Source of the DNA: a virus
Direction: 5' to 3' (one strand)
Length of the DNA: 64,000 nucleotides
IMG/VR virus record: IMGVR_UViG_3300046318_000260
Span: 3,862-67,861 of that record
The notes beneath the pieces were generated by a model, which was given only the letters and a program-made list of their open reading frames with translations, made no database searches and was not told where the DNA came from. This document shows, piece after piece, positions 8,714-60,187 of the stretch (positions within the stretch are counted from its first letter, which is position 1; each line of letters opens with the position of its first letter). Both the position numbers and the translations under genes were made by a program.

Positions 8714-9124
8714 ATGATTTTTAGCAAAGAAGAAACAAAGAATCTGTTGGGCATGTTACGCTCTTCAGATAATGAAAATGCTGTGGTGGCATTTGAAGCT
8801 CTTAAAGGAGTTGACACAGAAAAATATTTAGGTGAACTTATTGTACTGTACAAGTATGGTAAGAGATCCATAAAAGAATGGGAAGTAGCATGTCCTGGTT
8901 GTGAAATAGCAATCAGAAATGCTGTGACTAAATTCACTAAAGAAGAAGGTGCTGAGTTAAGCACTGGTTCTTGTTTATCAGCAATGACTGAAGGTAAAGC
9001 TAGTAATGAGTCTATTGAACTTTTCATGGAGTTATTTACTGAGAATATGATTAGCTTCTTAGGTCAGTTAGGATATCCTGCTGAGAAGTTTGAGATTTCC
9101 ATTAAATTAAAGGAAAATGACTAA
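8714..9124 (+). CDS. hypothetical protein
   Basis: ATG 8714 is the likely start; overlaps the downstream VWA gene. Confidence 0.7.
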   Translation: MIFSKEETKNLLGMLRSSDNENAVVAFEALKGVDTEKYLGELIVLYKYGKRSIKEWEVACPGCEIAIRNAVTKFTKEEGAELSTGSCLSAMTEGKASNESIELFMELFTENMISFLGQLGYPAEKFEISIKLKEND

Positions 9125-14085: not shown

Positions 14086-14088
14086 GTT

Positions 14089-15100: not shown

Positions 15101-15142
15101 ATTAACCAAAAAGGGGGAACAGCTTAACTGAACAAATCTATT

Positions 15143-15370
15143 ATGGGACATGTTGAATTTGGCCGATGTGATGTGTGTAAAAAAGACGGACCATTAGTAA
15201 GAACATATTGGCATTATCCAATTGCATGTGAATGTCATGGGCCTACACATAATGAAATGAGAAGACATTGTAATACATGTGTACCTCATCCACCACTTTA
15301 TACAGAGATAAGTGTATCTACAGCAAAATTGCTTGATCCAATCCATGAAGGTTTATTTAAAAAAAGATAG
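15143..15370 (+). CDS. small Cys/His-rich putative zinc-binding protein
   Basis: CDVC, CECH and HCNTC motifs; ends 2 nt before the polB start. Confidence 0.6.
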   Translation: MGHVEFGRCDVCKKDGPLVRTYWHYPIACECHGPTHNEMRRHCNTCVPHPPLYTEISVSTAKLLDPIHEGLFKKR

Positions 15371-15372
15371 AA

Positions 15373-42422: not shown

Positions 42423-45336
42423 TATATAACAGTTTATTTTGTTCTTTAGTTAAAGAAAATTGATTTATCAACATATCTCTTGCATCTTCTAAATTGGCAC
42501 CAAAAGTTGTTACATTATCAGTTACCTTTTTATACTCATAAGCCTTTGTATTAGGGTTCCAAATTGGAGCTCCAAGTGTAACTGAATAATCTCCTGCACC
42601 TAACTTATTTTTATTGATTGTAAATTTATAATTAGGATTAGTTGGATCAGTATAAGTATATGACTTAAAGTAATCAACATAAGATGCTAAAGGACTTTGA
42701 AATGAATTTGTATACATAGAATTAGTCATATCACTTGAGTTTGTAATATATGATATACCATTTTTCAAAATCAGTTCATATTCACCAGCTGTAATAAGAC
42801 CAGGTCCAGTACCATTTTTACCAGATTTAACTTGACTCTTTAACCATTCTGCATCTGGATGAATAATAATTGCTGCCTTGTTTAATGATCCAATAGCAAT
42901 AGGAGCAACTCCTAAACGAAAATTACCCATTTTATTTTTTGGGTTATTTATCTCAGCTTTCATTGCATCAAATAATGCTCTACCAACATCATTTTTAAAA
43001 CCTAGTTCACCTCTTTTATTCCAGTTATCTTTACTGATACCACCAAATGTAACACGGTTTTTATCAGTAGCACCCCAATCCAGCTTATTAAGATCATTGA
43101 AGACTTCTCCCATCCATGCAGAACTTTTAGAGCCATGAGCTTTAGGATTTACCCAAGTAGTTGTTGCTCCCATAGTGAACTTACCACTTCCATCTTTTGT
43201 AAATAATGTTGGACTAAAACCAATAGGGCTTTTAATTCTACCTGATGTATAAACTTTTCCTGCTGCTTTTACTAAAGCATCATAATTAATCTCACGTTGA
43301 AATCCAGACTGAGCTTCCATAGATCCTGATGTACCCATTGTAAGAGGACTTCCAATAACAACTGTTCTACCTGTACGTTTTGAATCTAGATATTTCTTAG
43401 GGATTTTTGCATAGAATTCATCCTCACTTCTTAAGTTACCTTTCTCATCATATAGATAATCCACATACTTAAAGCCTTGTCTTCTTAAATCTTTTTCTAC
43501 TTCATAAGAAGTTTTCTTTCTCCAATCAGCATCTGCTTTAAGATAGTTAGTATAGTCACCAAACTTAGATGAAGCTTTTTGATAGTTCACATACTCTTGA
43601 TCTGTAAGACCGCTTAATGCACCATTTTGACCCAACCAAGTATTCATTCTTGTCTGAATTTTTTGTAGATCATTTGCTCCTACTTCTGCACGTAACCACT
43701 CAGAACCATACTTATTAAGCTTAGCATCAAATTTACTCATGCTGATTTTTGGATTCTTACCATACGCTAGAATCTTACTTGCTTCCTCCTGAGTCATGCT
43801 TCCTTGTTGTACTAATCTTTCCATTAAAGCTAATGTACTTGTTAAGTATGGTTTAGCAACTGTTTCAGTTTGTAACTTATTGATCATTCTACTGGCTTCT
43901 TTCATATTTAATTTATCAGTAGAAGTACCTTTAGTATTAGTCTCAATAAATGTTTCATTTAATGCTTCCACAGGAACTACTTCTCCTGTTTCTTCATTAA
44001 GATAATGAGTACCAGCTTTAATTCTGGCCTCATCAAGTTTGTTTTTTCTTTCACCCTCATTACGGATTCTAGCTGCATTTGCTAAACCAGCATTTCTAGC
44101 AGCAACTTCTTGCATACTATACCGGTGTTTATCTGCAAGTACAGCATATGGATTAGCATCAATATCTGATTTTGCATCTTTAAATGCAAAGATATTAGCA
44201 GCTTCATCTAAATCCTTTTGCATAAGTATAGATGCCATACCATTATCAACCTTATACCGTAGTGATTTAATATCACCATAAGGATTAATAAATCCAGTAG
44301 TTGTTGTTTCAGTACTTTGACTAGTGCTTAATTCTTTTTGTTCATTCTCTGCTCTAGCTAATACTTGATCATTGATATCCTTATTCATCTTGTACTGCTG
44401 CAATGCAGCTTGAGCTTCCGGAGAAGCTGTACCATCTTTAATTTGTTTTTCAATGTCTTGAATCTTAGTATCATAAGAAACAGATTGTGCTTTAAGTGCT
44501 TGGTATCTTGCTACATTTTGAGCTTTCAACATGTTGTAACTATTCTCTAGATACTTCATCTCTGCAGCATTTTTATCTCCTCCAAATTGTGCAGCAGTTG
44601 ACTCTGCATAATTTTTTCTATTTACATAAGATTGTGTTTTGTAAACAGCTTGGATACCTGGGTCATTACCCAATCTAGCTTCAAATAACTTTTGTAAAGG
44701 TTCAATTAATTGTTCACCATTCTTTGTCTTAACAATCCATCTTCCATCTTTACTCAAGTCAGCTGACTCAATAGATAGACCAGCTTCTTTTGCAACCTCT
44801 TGTGCTTTAGCTACAGTATTTACATATGGAGTATACTCAACACTTTCCATAGACATTGCATCTTCGATAGAAGCTTCTTTGAACTCCTGTCTTTTAAACT
44901 GCAATTCTGCAATACCATCTGCCCAATACTGATCTCTTTGTTTTTGATCATATGCATTTTTTAAGCCTTCACCATAACTAACATTATTCATGAAATTTTT
45001 AGTGTAAGCCATATCTTTCATCAGCCCTTTATCCTCATAAAAAGGTTTAAAGATCTGAGTTGCTTGATCTACATTTTGCTCCAATGATAAATCTAACTGA
45101 GATACTCTTTGTAGATTAAACTCAATTTGATTAAGATAGTTATCTTTTTTTGCAATATTATCATCTCTTGTTAAATCAGCATGATAATACTGACCATACA
45201 TTTTATTTAAAGCTTTCCAGTTTGTGTCATACTGGGTCTGCTTTGTCTGCATTATATTGCCATAAAAATTTAGATCAGGCTGAAAAGGCTGAAACTGCGG
45301 AATATAATCTGTGACACCTTGTAGATACGTTGCCAT
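42409..45336 (-). CDS. virion cargo/ejection protein
   Basis: N-terminal YIPQFQPFQPDLNF, helical Q/K-rich body; position upstream of the RNAP cluster. Confidence 0.6.
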   Translation of the reverse strand: MATYLQGVTDYIPQFQPFQPDLNFYGNIMQTKQTQYDTNWKALNKMYGQYYHADLTRDDNIAKKDNYLNQIEFNLQRVSQLDLSLEQNVDQATQIFKPFYEDKGLMKDMAYTKNFMNNVSYGEGLKNAYDQKQRDQYWADGIAELQFKRQEFKEASIEDAMSMESVEYTPYVNTVAKAQEVAKEAGLSIESADLSKDGRWIVKTKNGEQLIEPLQKLFEARLGNDPGIQAVYKTQSYVNRKNYAESTAAQFGGDKNAAEMKYLENSYNMLKAQNVARYQALKAQSVSYDTKIQDIEKQIKDGTASPEAQAALQQYKMNKDINDQVLARAENEQKELSTSQSTETTTTGFINPYGDIKSLRYKVDNGMASILMQKDLDEAANIFAFKDAKSDIDANPYAVLADKHRYSMQEVAARNAGLANAARIRNEGERKNKLDEARIKAGTHYLNEETGEVVPVEALNETFIETNTKGTSTDKLNMKEASRMINKLQTETVAKPYLTSTLALMERLVQQGSMTQEEASKILAYGKNPKISMSKFDAKLNKYGSEWLRAEVGANDLQKIQTRMNTWLGQNGALSGLTDQEYVNYQKASSKFGDYTNYLKADADWRKKTSYEVEKDLRRQGFKYVDYLYDEKGNLRSEDEFYAKIPKKYLDSKRTGRTVVIGSPLTMGTSGSMEAQSGFQREINYDALVKAAGKVYTSGRIKSPIGFSPTLFTKDGSGKFTMGATTTWVNPKAHGSKSSAWMGEVFNDLNKLDWGATDKNRVTFGGISKDNWNKRGELGFKNDVGRALFDAMKAEINNPKNKMGNFRLGVAPIAIGSLNKAAIIIHPDAEWLKSQVKSGKNGTGPGLITAGEYELILKNGISYITNSSDMTNSMYTNSFQSPLASYVDYFKSYTYTDPTNPNYKFTINKNKLGAGDYSVTLGAPIWNPNTKAYEYKKVTDNVTTFGANLEDARDMLINQFSLTKEQNKLLYNGNW

Positions 45337-45359: not shown

Positions 45360-45402
45360 AATATATTAAAATTTTATAAGTTTAGTAAACCTATAAAGTT
45401 TA
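45360..45402 (-). promoter_or_regulatory. putative late promoter with upstream palindrome
   Basis: TTTAATATATT (-) at 45360-45370 and TAAACCT-ATA-AAGTTTA at 45386-45402. Confidence 0.5.
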
Positions 45403-47688
45403 GAGTGTCACTATTGGAAACACAGAATATACAAATCCTCCTTTTTGAAAAACTTGACCACCTGCTTTTTTACCATACTTTTGTTGCCATAAAAGTTTTT
45501 GTGTAGCCTCTGGATACTTCATAATTGAGTTAGCAAACTCAATTGCGCTTGCCTCATCAGCTCCTGGATCAACTTTCTTTTCAGTTGGTGTATAATTTAC
45601 AAATCCTCCTGTTGATGGATCAGTCTGATAGTTAGGATACATTTGATTCAATGCATCTGTCTTAGCTCTATTAGTAACAGCTGTATTGTATGCTTGACGC
45701 ATATTAGCTCTACCTGCTTTTTGAGCATTATCAAACTGTTGATTAGCAATAACATTTTTATCATAAACTCTATTGGCCATTTGCTGGTTCAACATGTTCT
45801 CTTGATTTCTTACACCTACCTGGTTAGCTTCAAATTGATTAGCAATGTTTACATTCTGATTATTAATTCTAGATAATACATCAGCTGCACCTTTTGCACC
45901 TTGACCTTGTATTTGTGAAAGTCTTGCATTTAATGCTTGTGGTCCTGCAAATGAAGCTGCAGCTTGAGCAGCAATATTAGCTTGCTCTGATTGTGCAGCA
46001 AGTTCTCTTGTAGGATCTAAGAAAGTAGGTCTTGGTTCTTCAAGATCAACTCTTCCTTCCCAAGGCATGTATTTCTTATTAGTCATTAAATCTCCAAATG
46101 CACCCATAGTATTTACAGTATCCTGTAACCACCATGCAGCAGGTTGTTTTTGTGGAGGATTTATTCCTGTATCTGGAATCTCTTTAGTACACTCATTACA
46201 GTTACCATTAACATCTTTTCCTGGATCATATGTTTCACCTGTTTCTGGATCTTTACATTCACATCTATCTTCAGGTGGTTTAGAACATGGTAAACAGTTA
46301 CCTTTATCATCTTTTTTAGCTACCTCTGGTGTACCATCAGCTTTTAAAACAGGCTTACCTGCTGCATCAACACAAGGACAGTCTTTAGTAGTCTCTGGTT
46401 CTAATTGAACAAAGTCTACTTCTTCTGATCCTGTTGAACGTGCTTCTTCACCTTTTTTAATGCAACTTGCAAATTTAGCTTTAATACCTGCTACCGTACC
46501 ATGTCCTTGTGCTGCTAATTCTTCAGGAGTAACTCCTTTAGATAATTCAGCACAAATAGTTTTACCCCAAGCAGCATTAGGTGCACCTGTTCCTGGTTTA
46601 GCTTTTCCTAAACTACTTCCTGGTGCAGCACCTTGACTAACCGTACCTCTACCATAAACATTGTTTCCAAGATCAGTATATCCTTCAGGAGCTTTTGTTC
46701 CTTTTTGTTTTTTAATCTCAGTTTGTTTCTTTTGTCTTTCTTGTAACTCAGCAGTAGTAAGTGCTCTTCCAGTTGTAGTTACTTTAGGTTTTGGATCTCC
46801 TCCAGTTTGATATCTTGAGATACCACCATAAGCCATTTCATTTGGATCATCATAGAAAGGTATATTAAAGCCACCCATCTGCATTCCATACATAGCCATA
46901 GGAGCTCCTTGCATCATCTCTGGAGACATTTGTTCCATCTCTTGAGGCATTGCAACCGGTTGACCATTTGGCATCTGTGTAGGAGCTTCATTCATTTGTT
47001 GCATCATAGGATTCATTTCTTCTCCTTGAGGCATACCTTGTCCTTGTGGTTGTTGTTCCTGCGGTATAAGATCTTCTTCAGCAATTCCATTTGCTTCCAT
47101 GTATGGTTTAGCAATCTCTGGAATACCTTGAGGAAATCCTTTCTTAGACTCTTGTGCTAATGCTAAAGCTCCTAACTTAAGAGTATAGGTTTTAATCATT
47201 AACTCAGCAGTCTTTCTATCAATAGCATCAGAATCAGAGTTTTGTAAAATCTCTCTGTACTTTTGAATATCAAACTTTTTGGATAACTCAGCTGGTGTGT
47301 AACCACCTTTCTTTGCAGGCTTATTAAACATCTTTAAGATATGAGCATCATTGATCTTCATATCTTTAGTGTCACTATAGATAAAACTATCATCTGGTAA
47401 GTTCAAAGGAACTCCGCCATTAGTATGTCTTGGGCCTTTAATTGTTTTAAATGAAGGCATCATACTTCCATCAAGATTACCAACCACAGTTTCTCCACCT
47501 TCAGCCTCAAGATTTGCTTCCTCTCTTGGTACTGCGGTTAAAGTTCTTGAAGCTTTTGGATTTGGTTTTCCAATGTAAGCATTATAGTCTGCTCCACCCA
47601 GTGCAGGTACATCATTTACTAAGGCACCTTTAACTTGGTATCCGGTTCTTGCTTGAGGAACACTTTTGATTCTAACTCTTCTTAACAT
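45400..47688 (-). CDS. virion cargo protein with repeated xxGG motifs
   Basis: EAEGGE...GPRHTNGGVP domain, Q/M-rich linker, Cys-rich insert and Q/N/A-rich helical C-terminus; start ATG 47688. Confidence 0.65.
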   Translation of the reverse strand: MLRRVRIKSVPQARTGYQVKGALVNDVPALGGADYNAYIGKPNPKASRTLTAVPREEANLEAEGGETVVGNLDGSMMPSFKTIKGPRHTNGGVPLNLPDDSFIYSDTKDMKINDAHILKMFNKPAKKGGYTPAELSKKFDIQKYREILQNSDSDAIDRKTAELMIKTYTLKLGALALAQESKKGFPQGIPEIAKPYMEANGIAEEDLIPQEQQPQGQGMPQGEEMNPMMQQMNEAPTQMPNGQPVAMPQEMEQMSPEMMQGAPMAMYGMQMGGFNIPFYDDPNEMAYGGISRYQTGGDPKPKVTTTGRALTTAELQERQKKQTEIKKQKGTKAPEGYTDLGNNVYGRGTVSQGAAPGSSLGKAKPGTGAPNAAWGKTICAELSKGVTPEELAAQGHGTVAGIKAKFASCIKKGEEARSTGSEEVDFVQLEPETTKDCPCVDAAGKPVLKADGTPEVAKKDDKGNCLPCSKPPEDRCECKDPETGETYDPGKDVNGNCNECTKEIPDTGINPPQKQPAAWWLQDTVNTMGAFGDLMTNKKYMPWEGRVDLEEPRPTFLDPTRELAAQSEQANIAAQAAASFAGPQALNARLSQIQGQGAKGAADVLSRINNQNVNIANQFEANQVGVRNQENMLNQQMANRVYDKNVIANQQFDNAQKAGRANMRQAYNTAVTNRAKTDALNQMYPNYQTDPSTGGFVNYTPTEKKVDPGADEASAIEFANSIMKYPEATQKLLWQQKYGKKAGGQVFQKGGFVYSVFPIVTL

Positions 47689-47697
47689 CTTGTACAA

Positions 47698-50600
47698 TTA
47701 TATAAATTCTAAATCTCCTCCGTTTGCAAGGAACTCTTGTATCTCTTCATCAGTCATGAATACTTCATCACCTTCAACCATTCCACCATCTTGATAGATA
47801 TTACCACCATATTGTTTAGAACGGCTATTCCATTTTTGACCCATTTCATCTGGTCTGTATAAACCAGAGTTACTTTCATAATCTCCACGGTCTTTACTAG
47901 GATCAGAAGCATAAAGATTATCTGCAGTTAAGTTATCTGACATCTTAGCCTCTTGTCTAGCTGCATCTCTTCTATTTAAAATACCTGTGATACCTCTTAT
48001 ACCTGCATTAGCAACATTTACATATGCTTCAGGATCAACAGAGTTTTTAACTTTATAATCTACAGCTACATCTTCACCAGGTCCTGCATAAACATTTTCT
48101 GCTTGATGACTTCCGATTTGTGTTGGATCAATTGTTTGTTCTTTTGGATCATTAGATGTATCTCTAGTAGGTATATTTTTATTCATAAAACCCATGTCTA
48201 ATGAACCAGTGCCTGAACCTTGGATACCAGGGTTAAGAGAAATCATATCTACCTGACTCATACCATGCATTGCTGGATTATTTGTGTAAACTACAGGACT
48301 TTGAAAACCATCTTGAGCTTTTGCAATAAATCTTTGTAAGTCACCTCCATATTGCATTTCTACATCTGCTCTTGGACCAGACATATTATATAACATATCT
48401 GCTGAAAAAGGAGTTCCTTGTGGAGCTGTTTCAGGAAGATTTGGTACAGTCAAAGATTGACGCATATAATCCATAGCTTTTTGTGCATCAAATCCTGGAG
48501 TTGTTCCTATAGGATCTGCTCCTGGATAACCAATATTTTCCATAGTTGGTGTATTCCAATATTCAGGATGTCTAGCTAATCTTTTATCATTTCTGTAAGC
48601 TTGTCTTTCACCTTTTCTAACAGCCATTGCAGCTCTCATTCTTAAGTCACTTACATCAGTTCTTTGTCTTTGTGGAGCTCTTACTTGTGACTCAACTGTT
48701 TCTGTACCAGATCCAGGAAGAGTAATAAGATTTTGTTTTCTAGGGTCCATCTCTTGTGTACCATAGGTAACTGTATACTTCTTAGGTCTACCTGTTAACC
48801 AGCTAGATTTAGTAACATCAATCTTTTTAATTCCAGTACCTACACCAGGCATATAATTAGCAACCGGTTTTCCTGTTCTAGGATCATATGGTACACCTTT
48901 CATTTTTGCATACTGAGTAGGCATAACATTAGCAGGAAATAGATTCTGTACAGCATATCCATACTGAGCCATTGGAAAATCTCCATTAGCTGTATCTTTA
49001 GAATATACATCATCTAAGTCACCTTGAGTAAAGTCTTCATTACCACCACCAATAAATTTCTGAAGATCACCATACTGATTTGCTATAGGGTTATTAATTG
49101 AACCACCCATTTGATGAATTGCTCCACCATTTTTTTTCTGACCTTGTGGTAGATCTTCCCATGGAACATAAATTACTCCACCATAGTCTTGAGACTGTGT
49201 AACAGCTGCAAAACTTTTTTTAGGTATTATCTTACCATTTTTATCTTTTACAATTTGATATCTTGCTGGTACAACTTGACCTAAAGTTGTTGTATATGTT
49301 CCTTGATAAGATGTAGCTTTTCCACCATCTTCTGTTGTCCAATTTTTTTCTTGTCTAGTATCTGGCTTAGGTGCTTTAGCTGATGGATTAATATCTGGTG
49401 CAGACATGATCTCGTTATTCAGATAATCTATTGTTTTTTCATCAGTTATTACAGCTGTTGCTTTTTTACCTGAGTAATGCTTTTTAGGATCACCTTCAAA
49501 TTTTTCATAAGACCCATCATTCCTTTGTCTATAATAGTAACCAGGTTTTGATTCTAAAGTAAGTAGACTTTGGCTTTTACTACCTTTACCTGATCTAGGA
49601 TCATTGGCTAAAATTTTTAATGTTTCAGGATTGGTAACAAGATTCCAATTATCAGCATTATCATCTACATAACCAGCTTTAGTTCTTGGAGCATCAGCAG
49701 ATTGAAATTCCCATTCACCATATTTATTTCTTTTATAGTTAAAGTCTTTTCCTGGAATATACTGGTAATTTAAAGTTTGATCTCCTTTGAATTTTTTAAT
49801 ATTCTCTATTCTTTTAGGATCTGTAACCTCATATGATACATCATAATTATTTTCATCTGGGATAACATAATACTTACCATCTTTTTGATAAAAGGCTGCA
49901 CCTTTTCTATCTTTTGTATATGTTAACTCTATACCAGTCTCTGGTGTTTTAACTGCTCCTCCTGGTTTGATTTCAGTTTCCACTTCTGTTTCTGTTACAG
50001 TAGGTTTTACTACGGTAGGATTAACTGGAGTTGTTTCAGTTTTACCCTCTGTAGTTACAGTTTGTGTAGGCTGCGTGTTTCCTGGTACAGTAGAAGAAGC
50101 AACTGTTCCTTGTGTACTTGTAGATACCGTAGTAGTTACATCTGTCTTAGCTGCATCTGTTGTAGCTTTAGAGTCAGGAGTAGTAGCTGCAATTTCTTCT
50201 TTTGCTTTGTTATTAACTGAAGCTGCTTCTGATTCTACTTTGATTCTTGTAGCAGGATACTTAATTGTTCTCGCACCATAACCATAGAAACCTACACCTT
50301 GTCCAGGCATACCCATTCCAGGCATTGGACTTCCTTGCCCAAACTCAATAGAGTATTCTTTAGGTTTACCAAACCAACCAGATCTTCTTACATCCATTTT
50401 AGTAATAGGAGGCATACCTTGAAAACCTCTAGGCATATTATAACCACCTGTATATGCATTTAATCTATTTCTTCTACCTCCAAATAAACCACCAAACTGA
50501 GCTTGTGTAATTTGATTCTGCTCATCTTGGAATACATCACCTGTTGCTTGTGAAAATAAAGCTAAGTGATGCATTGGATTTTCAAAATCTTGACCGGCAT

Positions 50601-51567
50601 AAATATCTTGTTCTCCTCCTTGTTGTGCAATAGGAAATTGTGGAGCAGGTGCTTGTTGCATCTGCATCATTTGATCATAATTTTGTTCTGCTTGTTTTTT
50701 AGCAAAAGCCATAGCAGATTGATTTTTAACAGAACCAATAAACTTGTCTAATGATTTCTTTCTTACATTAGCTCCTGTTGGATCTGCATTATCATCATCA
50801 AACTTAGCCGATGCTGGAGCAGCACTATCACCACCCATCTGTTTCTTAACTAGTTTAAGTACAGAGTTTACATAACTTCTTTTACTAGGCATTCCACCCA
50901 TTCTGTATTCTTCTGGTAATTGAGGTTCTGCATAATCAGAAAATACAGTTTCATCTTCTTCTGTTGCAGATGGTGCACTCCATGCAAGATCTGCATAAGG
51001 ATTAGTAGCACCTCCTAAATAATCACCCATGCTTTCTGGTAAGTATGCACTAACATCAGGCATTTGAATAGGCACTTCCATTCCTTCTTGAGCTCTTGGA
51101 TAACCTCCATAACGCATGATAATATCTGCAGCTACTTGAGAATCATCATCACTTGAATCATTCCACTCATCAATAATCTCATTAGACATTTCTGTTCCAG
51201 TAGGCGTTTGTCTAACTTGCTCTACCTCAGCTTCTTCAATAGTATCTGTACCAGCAGTTACTGCTTCAGAATCATCATCTTCTTCTTCAGCATCATCAAT
51301 TTCTGATTGTTTTTGTTGTTCTACATATTGGTATATTTGATCTACAAACTGTTGTGCCTCCATTGGATCTTTACCATAGGTATTAACCAGTTTGATTATG
51401 ATTCTTTCTCTAGGTTCTGAATTACCAATATCTGTTAGAACAGCTGAAGCTAATTGATTATCATCTATTTCTTGCATTTGTTGACTACCAGCACCTGGAT
51501 AACCCATAGTATCTACGTTAGGCATACCACCTTCCTGTGCTTTGTAAATCCTTACTCTTTTTTTCAT
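47698..51567 (-). CDS. virion cargo protein with many xxGG motifs and internal repeats
   Basis: About 13 [MYFAK]xxGG motifs, a T-rich linker and two classes of internal repeat. Confidence 0.65.
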   Translation of the reverse strand: MKKRVRIYKAQEGGMPNVDTMGYPGAGSQQMQEIDDNQLASAVLTDIGNSEPRERIIIKLVNTYGKDPMEAQQFVDQIYQYVEQQKQSEIDDAEEEDDDSEAVTAGTDTIEEAEVEQVRQTPTGTEMSNEIIDEWNDSSDDDSQVAADIIMRYGGYPRAQEGMEVPIQMPDVSAYLPESMGDYLGGATNPYADLAWSAPSATEEDETVFSDYAEPQLPEEYRMGGMPSKRSYVNSVLKLVKKQMGGDSAAPASAKFDDDNADPTGANVRKKSLDKFIGSVKNQSAMAFAKKQAEQNYDQMMQMQQAPAPQFPIAQQGGEQDIYAGQDFENPMHHLALFSQATGDVFQDEQNQITQAQFGGLFGGRRNRLNAYTGGYNMPRGFQGMPPITKMDVRRSGWFGKPKEYSIEFGQGSPMPGMGMPGQGVGFYGYGARTIKYPATRIKVESEAASVNNKAKEEIAATTPDSKATTDAAKTDVTTTVSTSTQGTVASSTVPGNTQPTQTVTTEGKTETTPVNPTVVKPTVTETEVETEIKPGGAVKTPETGIELTYTKDRKGAAFYQKDGKYYVIPDENNYDVSYEVTDPKRIENIKKFKGDQTLNYQYIPGKDFNYKRNKYGEWEFQSADAPRTKAGYVDDNADNWNLVTNPETLKILANDPRSGKGSKSQSLLTLESKPGYYYRQRNDGSYEKFEGDPKKHYSGKKATAVITDEKTIDYLNNEIMSAPDINPSAKAPKPDTRQEKNWTTEDGGKATSYQGTYTTTLGQVVPARYQIVKDKNGKIIPKKSFAAVTQSQDYGGVIYVPWEDLPQGQKKNGGAIHQMGGSINNPIANQYGDLQKFIGGGNEDFTQGDLDDVYSKDTANGDFPMAQYGYAVQNLFPANVMPTQYAKMKGVPYDPRTGKPVANYMPGVGTGIKKIDVTKSSWLTGRPKKYTVTYGTQEMDPRKQNLITLPGSGTETVESQVRAPQRQRTDVSDLRMRAAMAVRKGERQAYRNDKRLARHPEYWNTPTMENIGYPGADPIGTTPGFDAQKAMDYMRQSLTVPNLPETAPQGTPFSADMLYNMSGPRADVEMQYGGDLQRFIAKAQDGFQSPVVYTNNPAMHGMSQVDMISLNPGIQGSGTGSLDMGFMNKNIPTRDTSNDPKEQTIDPTQIGSHQAENVYAGPGEDVAVDYKVKNSVDPEAYVNVANAGIRGITGILNRRDAARQEAKMSDNLTADNLYASDPSKDRGDYESNSGLYRPDEMGQKWNSRSKQYGGNIYQDGGMVEGDEVFMTDEEIQEFLANGGDLEFI

Positions 51568-51584
51568 ATAACTAGTTATAATTA

Positions 51585-51627
51585 AATATAGTAAATTTTA
51601 AGTTATCACTTAAACTTAATAAGTTTA
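51585..51627 (-). promoter_or_regulatory. putative late promoter with upstream palindrome
   Basis: TTTACTATATT (-) at 51585-51595 and a perfect inverted repeat TAAACTT-AAT-AAGTTTA at 51611-51627. Confidence 0.55.
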
Positions 51628-51640
51628 GCTCTGTCTTCTA

Positions 51641-52975
51641 TTATTGATTCAATGAAGGTACAGATATATCATTCATGGTACTACCACCATTTGCATAAGC
51701 TGGACCATTTGGACCTACAGTTCCATCAGCACTTACCCAAGCATCTCTAGAGTCATCATAGTATGCACCACCTTTTTCATAGTGTTGCTTTTTGGCTTTT
51801 TCAAATTTATCATACTGTTGTTTTAAGTTTATGACATCACTCATAACTGAAAACGGAGCTACTTTTGTTTTAGAACTTTTTAAAGGAGACAAGATATCAC
51901 TAGCAACACTTAACTTGTTACTTTCATTGTTAGGATCTTGTGCATAGTCATATGCATCAGATGCATTTAATAAATAGTTTATACCCGTTTTAACTGCACC
52001 AGGCATAAAGTATTTACCTACTGTAAGCATAGTATTTCCTATAGCTTCCATTTGGTCTATTCTTGGAGTATTCTTTAGTTTGTCCTTGTGCTTTGCTTCT
52101 AGTTCAACAATTTGTTCATAGATTCTACCTCTTTCAGACATGTCTGACATTTTGGTTGGACCTAGTCCATCATTTTGAGAATCATACTTTTCTAGTTTTT
52201 TTCTTAAATAGTTTAATTTTTTAGTAATAGGATTTACCCGAGGTGTTTTAACAATAACTTCTTTATTAGTTGTAATTGGTATACAGTTTCCAAACTCATC
52301 TTTTCTAAGTCCTGGAGGACATCCTAATACACCACCTTTTTCAGCATGTATTAATCCTTCACCACCACATTTATGACATGTAGTAATATCCTTACCTCCA
52401 TCTGCAGCATTCCATTCCCAACCACATTTTTTACAAGTTACTTTCTTAGTAAGTAAAGCTCCTCCTTGTTTATAATCATCCAGTTCTTCTACTACATAAC
52501 CACCATCTTTATAAGCTTGTATTTCTTCAGGAGTTAACTCAAGTTCAATATAATCTTGAGCTTGTCCACCATCTTGATAGAAGCTAGCATTAGGATCATA
52601 GATCTGTTTTTTCTTAGGTTTTTTAAACAAAGGATTCACTGCAAAAAACTTATTCATAGCAGTAATGTTTCTAGTATATTTTTTACTAGGTTTTTTACCA
52701 CCCTTTTTCATCTGCGGATATTCATCAACATACTCAGCATCTGGAAAATTATAGTCTTGACCAGGTTGCATCATAACACCAGGCCCAACACTTGGTTGAG
52801 CCCATACTGGATAATTTACACCTTGCATTGTGATATCACCTCCAGGTATTCTTGTATTTTGACCAGGATACTTCCACTGTCCCATAGGATCAGTAATTAT
52901 ATCTTTTGGTTTTGCTGGAGCCTTTGCTTTATCTAATTCAGATACTGCTTTAGACAGAACTCTTTTATTATTCAT
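51641..52975 (-). CDS. modular virion protein with seven xxGG motifs and a Zn-ribbon module
   Basis: MKKGG, YQDGG, YKDGG, YKQGG, AEKGG, YEKGG and YANGG; CKKC...CHKC module. Confidence 0.65.
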   Translation of the reverse strand: MNNKRVLSKAVSELDKAKAPAKPKDIITDPMGQWKYPGQNTRIPGGDITMQGVNYPVWAQPSVGPGVMMQPGQDYNFPDAEYVDEYPQMKKGGKKPSKKYTRNITAMNKFFAVNPLFKKPKKKQIYDPNASFYQDGGQAQDYIELELTPEEIQAYKDGGYVVEELDDYKQGGALLTKKVTCKKCGWEWNAADGGKDITTCHKCGGEGLIHAEKGGVLGCPPGLRKDEFGNCIPITTNKEVIVKTPRVNPITKKLNYLRKKLEKYDSQNDGLGPTKMSDMSERGRIYEQIVELEAKHKDKLKNTPRIDQMEAIGNTMLTVGKYFMPGAVKTGINYLLNASDAYDYAQDPNNESNKLSVASDILSPLKSSKTKVAPFSVMSDVINLKQQYDKFEKAKKQHYEKGGAYYDDSRDAWVSADGTVGPNGPAYANGGSTMNDISVPSLNQ

Positions 52976-55900
52976 TACCTATTGGATAATTGATTTTTAG
53001 TACTAGTTAATTTCAAGATCATGTTGACATCACCTGACACATCTCTTCTTAAATGTAAGAAGTTCAAGTAGTGTCTGAATTTCTTTCTTTGAAGGAATGG
53101 TTTAGTGATATCCATATTATTAGGATTCAGTGTTTTAATATAACCATTAGGTTGTGTAACCCACAAATACTCTTGTGTATAGTTACCTAATAATTCTGTA
53201 GTTCCTGGTACTAACGGTCCTTGTGGAGGATAACCAGCACCTACAGGGAATTCACCTCTGTCTCTTGTAATATCCCAGAACTGGTTAAATCTATACTTGT
53301 TCTCTTCTTTAGAGAATAGTATTTCAAATCCCGGTAATGGTTGCACATTAGGTTCAATAATTTGATTAGGTGCAGGTTTTGGATATTCTAAACTTAATGA
53401 TACATTATTCTTAGGGAATATGTTCAAAGCAAGATATCCAGATACTTGCTCCATATTAAACACAACAGCTTTATCAAAGTTATAGTCTAATACTTGGAAT
53501 TGATCAACACAGTTGTAACTATCTCTTTTGTAACACTCAAGAATATACTGAACAGATTTTACTGTAGTAACAGTTTCTCCTGTGATTACTGGTATCTCAA
53601 CTTCAAAAGGATAATCTTTTCCATAATAGTTACAATAGCCATCACAGATGTAATTGTGTTTCCATAATGTATTATCCTTAGTTGTGATAAAATATGCTTT
53701 TGTTCCTAATGAAAAGTCAGGATGCCAGTCATGATAACTAATCCAAAACTGATTCTTAGGGTCATAGCTTAATGTCCATGAAGCATCTTCAAATAAGAAT
53801 GGGTCACCTAATAAATATCTAGCTCCGCCATTTAAAACAAAATAGTCACCTTGACCTTTTTGTCTACCAAAAGTTATTAATGGCACATACTCTACTTGAC
53901 CAACATATTCTTTTCTTAACTGGTAATCCTTCTTAGTAAAATAGATGATTGAGTTTGTATTGTCATACATTGCTTGGCAACCAATTCCAGATACTGGATT
54001 ATCTTGATATGGATAATCTGGGAAGTCTTCAGTTAGTTTATACGGTAGGAACAAAGTAAACCACCATTTTAATCCTGTCTGTGAAATTTCTTTTAAGCCT
54101 CCAGCATAGTTAAATATCTTAGCCTGGTTTTCAGACATGTAGAATAATCCAGCAGGTGTAGAAATTACAGCAAGTCTACTTTGTGAAGAACCATACTCAT
54201 ATGGTTTATCAGCATTAGTTACAGACTGACCTGGTTGACTAAATAAACCTCCGTCACCTATAGTTACCTTAGTACCTAAATCAGTTTGAAGTGTGTCAAC
54301 CCCTTGGTACATTAATGGGCTATCATTTTTAAAAGTGATGAATAAACCACTCTTGTTAATTGACTTAACACCACTAACTTGAGACTTAAACTCTTTATAG
54401 TTGTTTGGTAAGTATATAAACCAACTGTCTTTTAATGATTCATCCTGCTGCTGTAGAGAATAATAAATTCTATCAGGGTAGTAGGTGTAACATAACTTAG
54501 CTACATTAGGATCATAGTATCTGCTTTGTAAAGAACCCTGTGAAAAATACTGAGTAAATGCTTTTGATATACTAAGTGAATAGTCATATCTATATACATT
54601 ACCTCTAGTAATAATGTTAGGATTCATATTAAACATTGCAGGATAGTCTGTATATCTATATGGATCATAGTGTTTATCTCCTTCCTCAAGACCTTGTTGT
54701 CTAAAGTCAACTAACACATCAGATTCAACAAAAAAGTCTCTTACAGCTGAGTTTGCTAAATAAAACTTAGCTTCTTTTGCACCAAACAAACCAGGATAAT
54801 TTCCTGGATCATTATTAGCATAGTTATAACCAGACCAATCTAAATTATAAAATCTAGATGGAAGAGCTCCTGTTCCTGGAGGACTAACTGAACCAATAGA
54901 AATACTTGATGTCAAATCTGACACATCATACTTAATACTGTTTACTGCAAACTTAGGTGAAGGAATCATTTGGTGCAAATAGTAGTTATACTCAAAACCA
55001 TCTGGTTGACCATATAACCAATCATAGAAATAGAAGAATGTATTCTTTTCTGTGTATCTATTTATAAATGTATCACCTCCAAAAAAGATAGGAGTTCTTT
55101 GTAATGTCTTTTGGATCAGCACACTTCCTTGTGTAGTTGTAATGCTTTGACAAACAATACCTGTATTTACAGAAGCAAAGTTATTACCCGCACTTCCTAT
55201 TTTTTGCTCACATGGAGTAATTGGAATTTGTTTAATACCTTGTAACTGCCCATACTGATTTCTTAATCTAACTTTTAAAGCACCATAGTGACTAGCAATT
55301 GGTAAACTAAATGGAATATCAATATTAACAAAGTCTGGTTTTTCTCCAGGCAATACAGCAGGATCACTTAAACTTTGTAATAAAGAACCCATTGTCACCA
55401 AAGACTTATCAATATTGATAAAGTTAGGTCCATCACTTACACCTGTTCCAGTTAAAGTTCTTACTGTAACTGCATCAGATCTTTTTAAGTTATTGATAGT
55501 ATAAGATCTAAATACACCCGTACTATCTTGATACTTAGGAATCTCTTGTATGTTGTCTCTTATGTAGAAACTATCTGGAGTTTTGAACCTTACAATATTA
55601 GCCTGTACATTTTCAGGAGTCATACTACTATAGAATCCATGAGCTATAGCTTGCATTGCAAACTGTCTATATGGTAGTAGTGCTTGTATTAAACCTAAAG
55701 TTGCATCAGCTCCTTCTGAGAAATAAAATAAAAATTGATTCAAACCACCAAGTATTCTTAATGGCCCAGGAAGATAAGCATAACTTGGATATTCAATAGT
55801 CCCTGATAAAGATGGTATATAACCATAACCTGAACCAGGAATAATAGCTTGAGTATTTATTGATGAAGCTAAAAGTGATCCAGCTATATTTTGAACACTT

Positions 55901-58424: not shown

Positions 58425-59525
58425 TTATCTACCTGTTCCGTTTGGATTATACCCATATCTATTTACTGGACCAACTACTCTTGTAGCATTAGGATTTTCA
58501 GGATATGCATTAGCTGGAATATATGAATTGAACATATCATAGTATTTAGAATACTGCGCTCTTCTATTTTTCCACCATATCTCATATAGTTCTCTAAAGT
58601 TAGGAGTGTTAACCAAGCTAAGTGCTTGATTTCTAGCAGCTTTTAATCTTTGTTCTACCAATCCCATTCTCTGAGCAACATCTTCACCATTTAGATAAAG
58701 GTTCTCCATGATTCTTAACTTCAATGCATACTCATAATATTCATTTAATAAGTCATGATCCGGTACCATTAAGTTACCATTCTCATCTTCCATTTGACCC
58801 TGGTAATTTACATACACAGTACCTTCCTGAAAATTTGTAAACAAGTAACCACCTTTAATAAATCCTGCATTAAGAACATTGATGCCTACATTAGGACAAC
58901 CTCTTTCTACACCCTGGCCTTCTGCCATTCTTAAAGGAACCAGTTGTCTATAAACTCTTGTTTGAGTTGGATTAATTACTTGTACTAATTCCCATTCTTC
59001 ACCCTTACAGTTCATAAATACTCTTGGGCGGATACATGTATCACCATAAGGAGTAATAGGATCATATGCATTTGGTACAATAGGATCTGGACATGTTGAT
59101 GAACATGAGTTAGTAGGACATGCTGCAGTGTGATTACATGGATTAGAATTACATACTGCACAGTTGACTGTTATTGGAGCACATACATCTACGGTAGCAG
59201 GGACTTCTTGGTAGCGTACTTCTTGCATATTTGTTCCAGAAGCAAATCCACCATATCCTGTAGCTACTGTATACTCTCCACAAACTAATCCAAAGTTCCA
59301 TGTATAAAAATCATCTGGTAGTTTTACTTTACCATGACATACATCTAATGCAACTTCTTTAGTTTGATTGATTCTAAGACCTAAATCATAATTGATCTTC
59401 TTAGCTAACTTGATAAGCTGTTGTGGCTCAATCATGTTTTCTAAAGCAAATGTATTTAAGTCAATAGTAACATCTTCCAGCATCTGGTCAAATGTTCTAT
59501 ATCTCAGTGTGTAATTGTAGTCCAT
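58425..59525 (-). CDS. tail tubular/ring protein (P22 gp4-like) with Cys-rich insert
   Basis: LPDDF and TNF.EG.V..NY....D..G...VPD motifs; directly upstream of the muzzle gene. Confidence 0.7.
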   Translation of the reverse strand: MDYNYTLRYRTFDQMLEDVTIDLNTFALENMIEPQQLIKLAKKINYDLGLRINQTKEVALDVCHGKVKLPDDFYTWNFGLVCGEYTVATGYGGFASGTNMQEVRYQEVPATVDVCAPITVNCAVCNSNPCNHTAACPTNSCSSTCPDPIVPNAYDPITPYGDTCIRPRVFMNCKGEEWELVQVINPTQTRVYRQLVPLRMAEGQGVERGCPNVGINVLNAGFIKGGYLFTNFQEGTVYVNYQGQMEDENGNLMVPDHDLLNEYYEYALKLRIMENLYLNGEDVAQRMGLVEQRLKAARNQALSLVNTPNFRELYEIWWKNRRAQYSKYYDMFNSYIPANAYPENPNATRVVGPVNRYGYNPNGTGR

Positions 59526-60187
59526 TATCTAAGTGCATTTTGTCCATCATCTGAACCATCACCTGGTACAGATAAAGACATTGTTAATTCTTTTACTACA
59601 AACTGTTCTACTTCAGAAAATAAATATTCAGGTAAAACAAATTCATCATCTTGTCTTATCAAACAAGGATCAGTTTCACATGTCTCAACTTGACCATCAA
59701 AGATTGCTTCAATTCTAATAGCATCCCAATCTACATTAGGACAATAGATATAACCATTAAGATACCAGAAGTATTGTTTTCTGTTATACTTAAATGTTGT
59801 TGATCTTGTAATAGATGCCCATGTTCCAGGATCTGTTCTAAACATTTCAATTGTACCATCTATTGATGATGTGGTACGGATAAGTGGCCCAAACATTCCA
59901 TTAAGAATAGTTGGTAGTTTTTCTTTTGACCTTTTGAAGTAACACTCAGAGTAAACCCCAATACAACCTGCCTCAACTTTATCAACATCAATCAGCTCCA
60001 CATAAGGCATGACCTTAAAGATCTGACTCATCTTCATAAGTCTAAATTGATTATCTTCTCTCTTGATTAATGTCTGTGCATACTTCATTAGAGAATAGTA
60101 GATTGTTCTATCAGTTAAGAAGGGATCTTCTTTAACTGCTTTCAGGGTATTCCTTACTCTTGATATTGCCTCACCTATTGTTGTCAT
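59525..60187 (-). CDS. tail ring/structural protein
   Basis: RS..KLP, YFWYLNGYIY and I.IEAIF motifs; position in the tail module. Confidence 0.6.
   Translation of the reverse strand: MTTIGEAISRVRNTLKAVKEDPFLTDRTIYYSLMKYAQTLIKREDNQFRLMKMSQIFKVMPYVELIDVDKVEAGCIGVYSECYFKRSKEKLPTILNGMFGPLIRTTSSIDGTIEMFRTDPGTWASITRSTTFKYNRKQYFWYLNGYIYCPNVDWDAIRIEAIFDGQVETCETDPCLIRQDDEFVLPEYLFSEVEQFVVKELTMSLSVPGDGSDDGQNALR

What the first reader, a model, noticed from the sequence alone, without database searches (positions are those of the whole stretch)
45400..52975. Three adjacent cargo proteins segmented by ~25 [MYFAK]-x-x-G-G motifs: candidate processed-polyprotein delivery system
Seen in sequence: the 444 aa protein has MKKGG, YQDGG, YKDGG, YKQGG, AEKGG, YEKGG and YANGG. 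The 1289 aa protein has AQEGG, MRYGG, YRMGG, KQMGG, AQQGG, AQFGG, KKNGG, HQMGG, FIGGG, MQYGG, KQYGG, YQDGG and LANGG, plus variants AQEGM, AQYGY and AQDGF. The 765 aa protein has MQMGG, MAYGG, YQTGG, KKAGG and FQKGG. Motifs often come in tandem pairs and sit at boundaries between compositionally distinct modules (acidic, T-rich, Zn ribbon, Cys-rich, hydrophobic). The much longer flanking proteins do not show this density. Established: di-glycine sites are cleavage determinants for C39, ubiquitin-like and adenoviral proteases. Inference: these are polyproteins packaged into the head and cut into small effectors that are injected along with the virion RNAP.
Basis: partly seen in the sequence, partly recalled or inferred. 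Interest (0 to 1): 0.85.

Follow-up and report, generated by a model that had tools for sequence, protein, structure and literature searches.

The report
Gly-Gly motifs punctuating crassvirus cargo proteins

Summary

The window is a crAss-like phage. The genes follow ring proteins R2 and R1 and the muzzle gene, which is the cargo-protein position of PhicrAss001.

The motif, refined to [YFMAKH][QKRE]xGG, persists in hundreds of homologues, and GG pairs make up 14 of 57 invariant columns. It lies in low-confidence linkers. It flanks swapped lysozyme, amidase and VanY modules.

Cleavage is not shown. No GG-specific or prohead protease was found in a complete relative. Only zincin-like candidates exist. 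The tails after the last GG are conserved, and no P0001 or P0002 homologue ends at GG.

My best reading is a selected recognition and docking motif specific to packaged proteins (0.45). The processed-polyprotein reading stands at 0.33.

The parts
51641..52975 (-). Cargo protein A (444 aa, P0001). It has a confident N-terminal beta domain (about residues 25-88), 7 GG motifs, a Zn-ribbon and a helical domain.
   Evidence: Homologues carry GH24 lysozyme, Amidase_2, VanY and DUF6782 modules.
47698..51567 (-). Cargo protein B (1289 aa, P0002). It has 13 GG motifs and 3 degenerate ones, with GG pairs invariant in 29 homologues.
45400..47697 (-). Cargo protein C (765 aa from the TTG; the likely true start is the ATG at 47688, giving 762 aa; P0003). 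It resembles C1 (gp45) by position and has 5 GG motifs.
47701..47802 (-). C-terminal element of protein B (residues 1256-1289: ...YQDGG...MTDEEIQEFLANGG-DLEFI). It is absent from fused B+C homologues.
   Evidence: AlphaFold2 predicts a helix at 1273-1281 with pLDDT 64-68.
52451..52579 (-). Internal copy of the same mini-module in protein A (residues 133-175: YQDGG...ELTPEEIQAYKDGGYVVEEL..YKQGG).
   Evidence: The helix at 149-157 ends at the GG.
52975..58422 (-). Muzzle protein (1815 aa).
   Evidence: It is 61% identical over its full length to the G001 protein that matches Pfam crAss_MUZ at 1.5e-23. PHROG virion structural protein hits.
58425..59525 (-). Tail ring protein R1.
   Evidence: Pfam CrAss_Ring_1, 4.8e-09.
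59525..60187 (-). Tail ring protein R2.
   Evidence: Pfam CrAss_Ring_2, 2e-20.
42409..45336 (-). Next virion protein (975 aa, at the C2 position). It has a single AQFGG, and its homologues are almost free of the motif.
   Evidence: 1 motif in 8,282 aa of 9 homologues.
33977..34639 (-). Segment of the 3215-aa giant protein with a zincin-like motif, YHEAWH...EExLAExFR (HEAWH at residues 839-843). A candidate co-packaged metallopeptidase.
   Evidence: The motif is invariant in 6 of 6 genomes. Pfam is negative.
26188..26880 (-). Segment of the 1951-aa LysM protein with a conserved VHEF[AS]HP motif (residues 192-196).
   Evidence: Conserved in the 3 of 3 genomes that have a match. The nearest ESM Atlas clusters carry LPD23 and LPD1 polyvalent-protein domains, which is a lead only. 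Pfam is negative.
9117..10430 (+). DUF2201_N putative metallopeptidase (HELLH) plus a VWA-like domain. This is the only Pfam-supported peptidase-like gene.
   Evidence: A homologue is present in G001.
10442..11611 (+). MoxR-like AAA_5 ATPase next to the DUF2201 gene.
   Evidence: E 3.7e-4, just below the Pfam cut-off.

Best explanation
The three genes encode the cargo (ejection) proteins of a crAss-like podophage. These proteins are stored inside the capsid and tail and are expelled ahead of the DNA.

They are strings of exchangeable modules joined by a selected short linear motif. The motif is a hydrophobic or aromatic residue, then Q/K/R/E, then any residue, then Gly-Gly. It often caps an amphipathic helix and lies in a flexible linker or a few residues from a chain end.

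I read the motif as a recognition and docking signal that is specific to proteins destined for the virion interior. Many weak copies would let a common partner (portal, ring, inner capsid, scaffold or loading factor) recruit and order the modules. The Gly-Gly would give the joint that allows extended storage and threading from N- to C-terminus.

Shown here: the motif, its conservation, its restriction to cargo-type proteins, its linker location and the module swapping. Inferred: that it binds a partner and stays uncut in the virion.
For: 1. Enrichment and conservation.
- Window.
- 120 homologues of P0002 carry 988 motifs against 75 expected.
- 119 homologues of P0001 carry 507 against 34 expected.
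- 150 representatives of the P0003 family carry 333 against 70 expected.
- 14 of the 57 invariant columns in the 29-sequence alignment are GG pairs.

2. Restriction to internal proteins.
- In 11 related loci the motif density per 1000 aa is 3.2-4.8 in the three cargo families. It is 0-0.37 in muzzle, ring, p975 and p1865 homologues.
- In the complete relative G001 there are 16 motifs in 2,306 cargo aa and 9 in 35,748 other aa. Six of those 9 are in three small Lys-rich proteins, two of them near the capsid gene.
- In that family of small proteins, 68 of 77 members have GG in the last 20 residues.

3. Linker location.
- 5 of 7 motifs in P0001 lie in segments with pLDDT below 50.
- A sixth ends the confident N-terminal domain and the seventh ends a helix.

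4. Chain-end elements behave as functional parts.
- 112 of 119 P0002 homologues end exactly 5 residues after the last GG, as GG[DEQ][LVI]E[FY][IL], and E1287 is invariant.
- Fused B+C proteins keep the junction GG motifs. They lose the C-terminal element of B and the basic N-terminus of C together.

5. PhicrAss001 C1 (gp45).
- It has 21 GG in 842 aa.
- The cryo-EM-resolved docked segments 214-245 (on R1/R2) and 425-552 (on the portal) begin at or just after SAYGG(206-210) and NAFGG(424-428) (passages of PMC10172136; sequence).
- The resolved stretch 425-552 runs through three GG pairs.

6. Cellulophaga phage phi4:1 gp040 is annotated as a virion structural protein from MS/MS proteomics. It is the second ORF after the muzzle gene and has 5 motifs against 0.53 expected.
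Against: - No partner is identified, and no binding was shown by any search.
- In PhicrAss001 the residues just before GG(209-210) lie outside the resolved stretch 214-245, which is odd for a docking motif.
- The information in the motif is confined to the three residues before GG, with a weak prime side.
- Pro is 2- to 4.5-fold depleted right after GG but not one position later.
- Both of those features are typical of protease sites.
- PhicrAss001 gp45 carries a looser version of the motif (A[YF]GG; only 2 strict motifs against 0.88 expected), so transfer from that structure is indirect.
- The AlphaFold2 model of the C-terminal 500 aa of P0002 was too poor (mean pLDDT 40.8, 12-sequence alignment) to test linker location there.
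Confidence: 0.45

Rival explanations
1. Processed polyproteins. The motifs are cleavage sites, with the cut after Gly-Gly, for a phage-encoded or host protease. Cutting would release lysozyme, amidase and other modules and remove short leaders, inside the head or after ejection.
For: - The information lies on one side, at P5-P1, with invariant GG.
- Pro is depleted at P1': 8 observed against 26 expected, 8 against 36, and 10 against 19. It is not depleted at P2': 21 against 26, 92 against 36, and 24 against 19.
- The motifs lie in flexible linkers and flank enzyme modules.
- Motifs sit 5-45 residues from N-termini, like leaders.
- B and C occur fused or separate with the motifs kept at the junction.
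- Candidate zincins exist. HEAWH...EExLAExF in the 3215-aa protein is invariant in 6 of 6 genomes, VHEF[AS]HP is found in the 1951-aa protein, and DUF2201_N carries HELLH.
- Precedents in print: polyvalent proteins predicted to be processed by zincin-like peptidases, and P1 DdrB processed before packaging (passages of PMC5512222). P22 gp20 may need cleavage by a host enzyme (passage of PMC8954989).
- Cleavage would explain how parts of gp45 come to lie in both capsid and tail of PhicrAss001.
Against: - No C48 protease in 0 of 5 relatives.
- The 109 ORFs of a 100%-complete relative contain no C39, adenain or prohead protease family. Their only peptidase-like hit is the DUF2201_N/PhageMetallopep zincin gene.
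- Pfam does not support the two HExxH segments.
- The same paper states that N4 virion RNAP, which has such a domain, is packaged unprocessed.
- Tails after the last GG have conserved length and sequence. 0 of 238 P0001 and P0002 homologues and 2 of 150 P0003 representatives end at GG.
- Tandem sites 7 residues apart would yield useless heptapeptides.
- The capsid, portal and scaffold-like proteins of G001 lack the motif.
- The resolved stretch 425-552 of gp45 includes three GG pairs.
Confidence: 0.33
2. Ordinary structural repeat. The motifs are turns of small folded units (beta-hairpins, or strand-helix-GG-strand mini-domains), with no recognition role.
For: - A recurring module of about 35 aa, [YF]xxGG-x(3-6)-ELTxEEIxx[YF]xxGG[YF][IV]xE[ED]L, is found inside proteins and at their C-termini.
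- GGx[IV][YF]QxGG has a fixed 7-residue spacing.
- Helices end at GG in both models.
Against: - In the one usable model, 5 of 7 motifs are in segments with pLDDT below 50, not in packed repeats.
- Conservation before GG does not extend into a repeat-length unit at most sites.
- Many sites are followed by Pro or by variable insertions.
Confidence: 0.1
3. Compositional by-product of Gly-, Gln- and Lys-rich, low-complexity cargo proteins.
For: The three proteins have 9.2-9.5% Gly against 1-11% elsewhere, and long parts are predicted with low confidence.
Against: - 0 of 2000 composition-preserving shuffles reach the observed counts.
- GG pairs are invariant at fixed columns down to 37% identity.
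Confidence: 0.02

Closest known systems
Crassvirus cargo protein C1 (PhicrAss001 gp45; PDB 7QOG and related entries; Pfam crAss_CARG1)
   Same: - Gene position after the muzzle gene.
- Rich in GG (21 in 842 aa).
- Basic N-terminus, and a K-rich C-terminal tail containing GG.
- The resolved docked segments begin at GG motifs.
- A N/Q/A-rich helical C-terminal region.

   Different: - No significant sequence match: BLASTP gave nothing, hhalign gave E 0.12, and 0 of 40 family members hit PF25725.
- Here the role is spread over three proteins.
- The motif here is sharper ([YFM][QK]xGG rather than A[YF]GG).
Polyvalent proteins of phages and conjugative elements (Iyer, Burroughs, Anand, de Souza, Aravind 2017; PMC5512222; passages read)
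   Same: - Packaged multidomain proteins with lysozyme or amidase modules and module shuffling.
- Zincin-like HExxH elements nearby.
- Processing predicted but untested.

   Different: A word search of that paper's text found neither 'glycine' nor 'crAss'. No MPTase domain is supported by Pfam here.
Gly-Gly-directed viral and bacterial processing: adenovirus protease (M/L/I)XGG-X, ASFV pS273R GG-X, Ulp1/SUMO QxGG, and C39 double-glycine leaders LSxxELxxIxGG (all consensus patterns recalled, from no call)
   Same: - GG preceded by a hydrophobic residue and often by an amphipathic helix (for example LTPEEIQAYKDGG).
- The substrates would be internal virion proteins, as in adenovirus and ASFV.
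   Different: - The hydrophobic residue is one position further from GG.
- Sites are internal, tandem and also C-terminal.
- No such protease was found.
T4 capsid-targeting sequence and prohead protease gp21 (recalled)
   Same: A short N-terminal signal on internal proteins that marks them for the head interior.
   Different: - T4 sites are L/I-x-E and are cut by a prohead protease encoded in the head module.
- No prohead protease was found here.
- The motif here is also internal and C-terminal.
T7 gp16 and other podovirus ejection proteins (review PMC8954989, passages read)
   Same: Ejected multidomain proteins carrying a peptidoglycan hydrolase module, stored in the virion and threaded through the tail.
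   Different: I found no report of a repeated Gly-Gly motif in them (search).

Membership tests
Crassvirales-type virion module | Paralogous tail ring proteins R1 and R2 | tested here: met
   Pfam CrAss_Ring_1 at 4.8e-09 and CrAss_Ring_2 at 2e-20.
Crassvirales-type virion module | Muzzle protein next to the ring genes | tested here: met
   The window protein itself has no Pfam hit at 0.01. It is 61% identical over its full length to the G001 protein that matches crAss_MUZ at 1.5e-23.
Crassvirus cargo protein 1 (Pfam PF25725 crAss_CARG1) | Sequence match to the family model | tested here: not met
   P0003 has no hit and 0 of 40 family members hit at E<=0.1. The ESM Atlas gives a named cluster at 0.90, which is a lead only. 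hhalign against gp45 gives E 0.12.
Crassvirus cargo protein 1 | Gene directly downstream of the muzzle gene, upstream of the RNAP-type giants | tested here: met
   The same order holds in 11 related loci and in G001.
Crassvirus cargo protein 1 | Presence in virions, docked to portal and tail barrel | not testable with these tools
   The only related evidence is that Cellulophaga phi4:1 gp040 is annotated as a virion protein from MS/MS.
Double-glycine (C39) leader peptides | N-terminal leader with hydrophobic residues at -4, -7 and -12 before GG (consensus recalled) | tested here: not met
   The hydrophobic residue lies three residues before the first Gly, that is at -5. Sites are mostly internal or C-terminal.
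Double-glycine (C39) leader peptides | A cognate C39 peptidase or PCAT transporter encoded nearby | tested here: not met
   There is no such family among the 43 window ORFs scanned or the 109 ORFs of G001. Host genes could not be examined.
Clan CE substrates (adenain, Ulp1, ASFV pS273R) | A clan CE cysteine protease in the genome | tested here: not met
   PF02902 matched in 0 of 5 related records at E<=1. No C5, C48 or C57 hit was found in the Pfam scan of G001.
Polyvalent proteins (Iyer et al. 2017) | Several unrelated effector domains in one packaged polypeptide | tested here: met
   Relatives of P0001 combine lysozyme with Amidase_2 or Amidase_6, or carry VanY or DUF6782. P0001 itself has no Pfam domain.
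Polyvalent proteins (Iyer et al. 2017) | Zincin-like MPTase domain (HExxH plus a downstream Glu) | tested here: inconclusive
   The motifs are conserved in the neighbouring 3215-aa protein (6 of 6 genomes) and 1951-aa protein (3 of 3). Pfam is negative. No such motif exists in the three GG proteins.
Prohead-protease-processed internal proteins (T4, phiKZ type) | A prohead protease gene in the head module | tested here: not met
   The G001 head module (terminase, portal, a 417-aa acidic protein, capsid protein) has no protease family. The capsid, portal and 417-aa proteins lack the motif.

The most novel reading that the evidence does not exclude
A very large group of crAss-like phages uses a Gly-Gly-directed processing system analogous to those of adenovirus and ASFV. 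The P0003 family alone has 1,857 cluster representatives.

On this reading, cargo polyproteins and small Lys-rich core proteins are cut after [YFM][QK]xGG by a protease of a kind not yet recognised. The protease might be the conserved HEAWH zincin-like element of the co-packaged giant RNAP-type protein, or the DUF2201_N/MoxR pair. Cutting would release peptidoglycan hydrolases and other effectors.

This would also change the published picture of PhicrAss001 C1. Separate fragments in tail and capsid would replace a single chain threaded through the portal.
Probability: 0.3. Interest if true: 0.85.

Novelty: new variant of a known kind. Interest (0 to 1): 0.6.

Why it matters
Crassviruses and their environmental relatives are among the most abundant phages. 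How about 5 MDa of cargo protein is chosen, loaded, stored unfolded and expelled in order is an open question (PMC10172136, passages).

A motif that is specific to the packaged proteins, invariant at fixed joints and present in a cultured phage (Cellulophaga phi4:1 gp040) gives that question a concrete handle. One can mutate the motif, look for termini at it, or use it as a tag to load foreign proteins.

If the sites are cut, it would be a phage counterpart of adenovirus and ASFV core maturation, and it would point to an unrecognised protease.

Five literature searches found no description of the motif. The searched library lacks most subscription-journal papers.

Tried and rejected
- Structure prediction was not ready and was accepted.

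Searches with no match:
- Megablast of the region against phages: no match.
- tblastn of P0002 and of P0003 against phages: no match.
- The search for related loci with the single protein: none. The alignment query then worked.
- PDB sequence searches with P0003, with the P0002-family profile and with the DUF2201 protein: nothing credible.

Homology to PhicrAss001 cargo proteins:
- BLASTP of P0003 and P0002 against gp45, and of p975 against gp46: nothing significant.
- hhalign of the P0003 family against gp45: E 0.12.
- Pfam crAss_CARG1: 0 of 40 members.

Domain searches on short segments:
- Pfam on the mini-module: only sub-threshold DUF7210 in one relative.
- Pfam on the two HExxH segments: negative.

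Structure:
- Foldseek of the P0001 model against the PDB: best E 0.14, small cupin-like barrels, not used.
- AlphaFold2 of P0002 residues 790-1289: mean pLDDT 40.8, too poor to use beyond two helices.

Docking idea:
- The idea was that the C-terminal element of protein B binds the basic N-terminus of protein C.
- The complex-prediction job gave no verdict (score 0.20, mark 0.32).
- The idea rests only on the two elements being lost together in fused forms.

Other checks:
- The median-distance test of indels against GG was not significant (686 of 2000). The region-based test was (88 of 5000).
- More distant cultured relatives (Flavobacterium Fpv1, Leptolyngbya Lbo-JY46) show only 1-2 motifs per post-muzzle ORF.
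- The PhicrAss001 gel paper gives band sizes but not which band held gp45. Its figure and PDF supplements could not be read.

Subsets used:
- Searches used 30 of the 120 listed homologues.
- Alignment A1 used 29 of those 120 homologues.
- Alignment A2 used P0001 plus 83 of its 120 listed homologues.
- Alignment A3 used P0003 plus 39 of its 150 listed representatives.
- Searches used 11 of 14 loci. L008 was analysed separately as G001. L012 and L013 hold only a C-terminal piece.

Full report
WHAT IS THERE

The window is part of a 67.9-kb contig of a phage with about 34% G+C. On the minus strand the gene order runs as follows:
- Tail ring protein R2 and tail ring protein R1 (Pfam CrAss_Ring_2 at 2e-20 and CrAss_Ring_1 at 4.8e-09).
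- An 1815-aa protein. It is 61% identical over its full length to a protein of a complete relative that matches Pfam crAss_MUZ at 1.5e-23.
- The three ORFs of the finding, of 444, 1289 and 765 aa.
- Proteins of 975, 1865, 3215 and 1951 aa.

[quoted passage not shown] All were detected in virions (passages of PMC10172136; gene table). By position, then, the three ORFs are cargo or ejection proteins.

The 765-aa ORF most likely starts at its fourth codon, an ATG at 47688. The ESM Atlas holds the sequence from that residue on, and the relative's protein starts MLRRVKIK.

THE OBSERVATION

- It occurs 27 times in 2,498 aa.
- Composition-preserving shuffles give 6.0, and 0 of 2000 reach 27.
- It occurs 13 times in the remaining 18,277 aa of the window.

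Position-specific counts led me to a narrower pattern, [YFMAKH][QKRE]xGG. It gives 23 hits against 1.5 expected, and 2 elsewhere. This pattern was defined after seeing the data, so its statistics in the window are optimistic. It was then tested on other sequences.

CONSERVATION

- 120 homologues of the 1289-aa protein carry 988 strict motifs against 75 expected.
- 119 homologues of the 444-aa protein carry 507 against 34 expected.
- 150 cluster representatives of the 765-aa family carry 333 against 70 expected. This family has 1,857 representatives at E<=0.001.
- In a 29-sequence alignment reaching down to 37% identity, 14 of the 57 invariant columns are seven GG pairs, and two more pairs are at least 90% conserved.
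- In a 30-sequence alignment, the sites at residues 13, 154, 224, 245, 821, 840, 1074, 1254 and 1283 keep GG in 28-30 sequences.
- Sequence information is concentrated in the three residues before GG and is weak after it.

These counts are not phylogenetically independent.

SPECIFICITY FOR PACKAGED PROTEINS

In 11 related loci:
- Homologues of the three proteins have 3.7, 4.8 and 3.2 motifs per 1000 aa.
- Muzzle homologues have 0.37 and p975 homologues 0.12.
- p1865, R1, R2 and p193 homologues have none.

In the complete relative G001 (122 kb, CheckV 100%):
- The three cargo proteins hold 16 motifs in 2,306 aa.
- The other 106 ORFs hold 9 in 35,748 aa.
- Six of those nine are in three small Lys-rich proteins, two of them beside the capsid gene.
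- One of these small proteins has 77 homologues. 68 of them have GG within the last 20 residues (tails such as KKKGGIIKTKKK), and 43 have GG within the first 30.

The capsid, portal and the 417-aa acidic, scaffold-like protein of G001 lack the motif context.

Cellulophaga phage phi4:1 gp040 is annotated as a virion structural protein from MS/MS proteomics. It is the second ORF after its muzzle homologue and has 5 motifs against 0.53 expected. More distant Flavobacterium and Leptolyngbya phages have only 1-2.

PhicrAss001 gp45 has 21 GG in 842 aa, but of a looser A[YF]GG type. gp44, gp46, gp47, gp49 and gp50 are not enriched.

MODULES AND LINKERS

Homologues of the 444-aa protein share the N-terminal part of about 200 residues. 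After it they carry different modules:
- GH24 lysozyme
- Amidase_2
- Amidase_6
- VanY
- a DUF6782 metallopeptidase-like domain

The first cargo ORF ranges from 427 to 2102 aa in length. GG motifs flank these enzyme domains, often in pairs.

AlphaFold2 with an 84-sequence alignment gives the 444-aa protein these features:
- a confident beta domain (about residues 25-88, pLDDT 81-96)
- a Zn-ribbon hairpin
- a helical domain (249-400)

Five of its seven motifs fall in segments with pLDDT below 50, which cover 24% of the residues (253 of 20000 random placements match this). One motif ends the N-terminal domain and one ends a helix.

In the 1289-aa family, 6 of 12 indel hot-spot regions touch a GG (88 of 5000 random). 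A median-distance version of this test was not significant. The model of residues 790-1289 was poor (mean pLDDT 40.8, 12 sequences).

A recurring module of about 35 residues, [YF]xxGG...ELTxEEIxx[YF]xxGG[YF][IV]xE[ED]L, occurs inside proteins and at their C-termini.

CHAIN ENDS AND FUSIONS

Distance from the last GG to the C-terminus:
- 112 of 119 homologues of the 1289-aa protein end exactly five residues after the last GG, as GG[DEQ][LVI]E[FY][IL].
- Homologues of the 444-aa protein end 6-7 or 23-29 residues after it, with ...GGYIVEELD-type tails.
- None of these 238 proteins ends at GG.
- 2 of 150 representatives of the 765-aa family end at GG.

Eight long representatives are apparent fusions of the 1289-type and 765-type proteins. 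All eight align to the 765-aa protein from residues 12-24 onward, and five also align to parts of the 1289-aa protein. In three of them the alignment to the 1289-aa protein runs to residues 1248-1255 and resumes in the 765-aa protein at residues 14-17. The C-terminal element of the first protein and the basic N-terminus (MLRRVRIK...) of the second are therefore lost together, while GG motifs remain at the junction.

SEARCH FOR A PROTEASE

What was not found:
- Pfam Peptidase_C48 was not found in 5 related records.
- A Pfam scan of all 109 ORFs of at least 70 aa in G001 gave no protease family.
- A PHROG scan of 21 G001 virion-region proteins, including its head module, gave none either.

The candidates that remain:
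- The one exception to the negative Pfam scan is a DUF2201_N putative metallopeptidase fused to a VWA-like domain. The window homologue (9117-10430) carries HELLH and sits beside a MoxR-like AAA_5 gene in the replication module.
- The 3215-aa protein contains YHEAWH...EExLAExFR. The motif is invariant in the window and in five relatives at 42-78% identity.
- The 1951-aa LysM protein contains VHEF[AS]HP, conserved in the three genomes that have a match.

These two motifs fit the description of zincin-like peptidase domains of polyvalent proteins: HExxH in one helix and a Glu in the next (passages of PMC5512222). Pfam does not support them. The same paper notes that N4 virion RNAP, which has such a domain, is packaged unprocessed. 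The ESM Atlas places the 1951-aa segment near clusters with LPD23 and LPD1 polyvalent-protein domains, which is a lead only.

WEIGHING THE READINGS

In favour of cleavage:
- The information in the motif is on one side of GG.
- Pro is depleted immediately after GG but not one residue later.
- The motifs lie in linkers and flank enzyme modules.
- Some motifs sit near N-termini, like leaders.
- Fusion or separation of the proteins seems not to matter.
- Zincin-like candidates are present.
- There are published precedents: P1 DdrB, predicted polyvalent-protein processing, and possible host cleavage of P22 gp20.

Against cleavage:
- No recognisable GG-directed or prohead protease is present.
- The tails after the final GG are conserved, and no P0001 or P0002 homologue ends at GG.
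- Tandem sites lie seven residues apart.
- The register differs from the adenain and double-glycine consensus, which I recall from memory.
- The PhicrAss001 paper reports gp45 residues 425-552 as one compact resolved domain, and that stretch contains three GG pairs. Its docked segments begin at or just after GG motifs.

My conclusion is that the motif is a selected recognition and docking signal of packaged proteins, placed at joints and chain ends (0.45). Cleavage at some or all sites is a serious rival (0.33). The two are not exclusive, as the T4 capsid-targeting sequence shows (recalled).

An ordinary folded repeat (0.10) is disfavoured by the usable model. A compositional artefact (0.02) is excluded.

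COMPARISON WITH WHAT IS KNOWN, AND NOVELTY

The proteins work like crassvirus cargo protein C1, like podovirus ejection proteins, and like polyvalent proteins. Membership in Pfam crAss_CARG1 was tested and not met.

Five full-text searches found no description of a Gly-Gly motif in crassvirus cargo or podovirus ejection proteins. Most subscription-journal papers are not in the library, and the supplements of the PhicrAss001 papers could not be read.

I rate this a new variant of a known kind, with interest 0.6.

Noticed in passing
window 47688-47700: The 765-aa ORF, counted from its TTG, directly abuts the TAA stop of the 1289-aa ORF and is in the same frame. An ATG lies three codons further on. 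In G001 the two genes are in different frames, so the arrangement here is probably chance. Even so, fused B+C proteins do exist elsewhere.
   Followed up: partly
window 52711-52900 (P0001 residues about 25-88): The confident N-terminal beta domain of the first cargo protein matches the C-terminal half of Pfam SET in more than ten homologues (about 25-34 bits, cut-off 22.4). P0001 itself does not match. Foldseek gave only weak cupin-like hits (best E 0.14).
   Followed up: partly
window 47370-47510 (P0003 residues about 64-108): The conserved N-domain of the 765-aa family has invariant E64, E66, E69, G88, H91, G94, G95 and S108 (ANLEAExGE...GxRHSxGGxPLNLPDxSFIFSD). This could be a metal or catalytic site. 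It aligns weakly with the portal-bound domain of PhicrAss001 gp45.
   Followed up: partly
G001 (L021) 14334-16052; G001 (L020) 12205-12510: Small, very Lys-rich proteins, two of them beside the capsid gene of the complete relative, carry the same motif at both ends (MQYGG..MQKGG...KKKGGIIKTKK). They may be DNA-associated core proteins. Between the two lie DUF5872 and DUF6321 proteins. The window's contig ends before this region.
   Followed up: partly
window 9117-11611: A DUF2201_N zincin (HELLH) plus VWA gene lies next to a MoxR-like AAA gene in the replication module. The zincin-VWA gene is also found in G001. The PhicrAss001 record annotates gp77 as containing a metalloprotease domain.
   Followed up: partly
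G001 (L026) 4640-15826: The relative's homologue of the 3215-aa giant protein carries a 2OG-Fe(II) oxygenase domain (residues 3187-3402, E 1.8e-12). No Pfam family was found in the window's copy.
   Followed up: no
window 21322-27177: The 1951-aa protein has a LysM domain (residues 1639-1681). This suggests that a peptidoglycan-binding or peptidoglycan-degrading part travels with the virion.
   Followed up: no
window 6674-7105: A SegE-like GIY-YIG homing endonuclease ORF sits among the replication genes.
   Followed up: no
window 51526-51567 (P0002 N-terminus): Compared with 27 of 30 homologues, the window's 1289-aa protein lacks about 18 residues (PDGEGKFINKTAQFLQKA) between RIYKA and QEGG. 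The deletion preserves the first GG motif.
   Followed up: no
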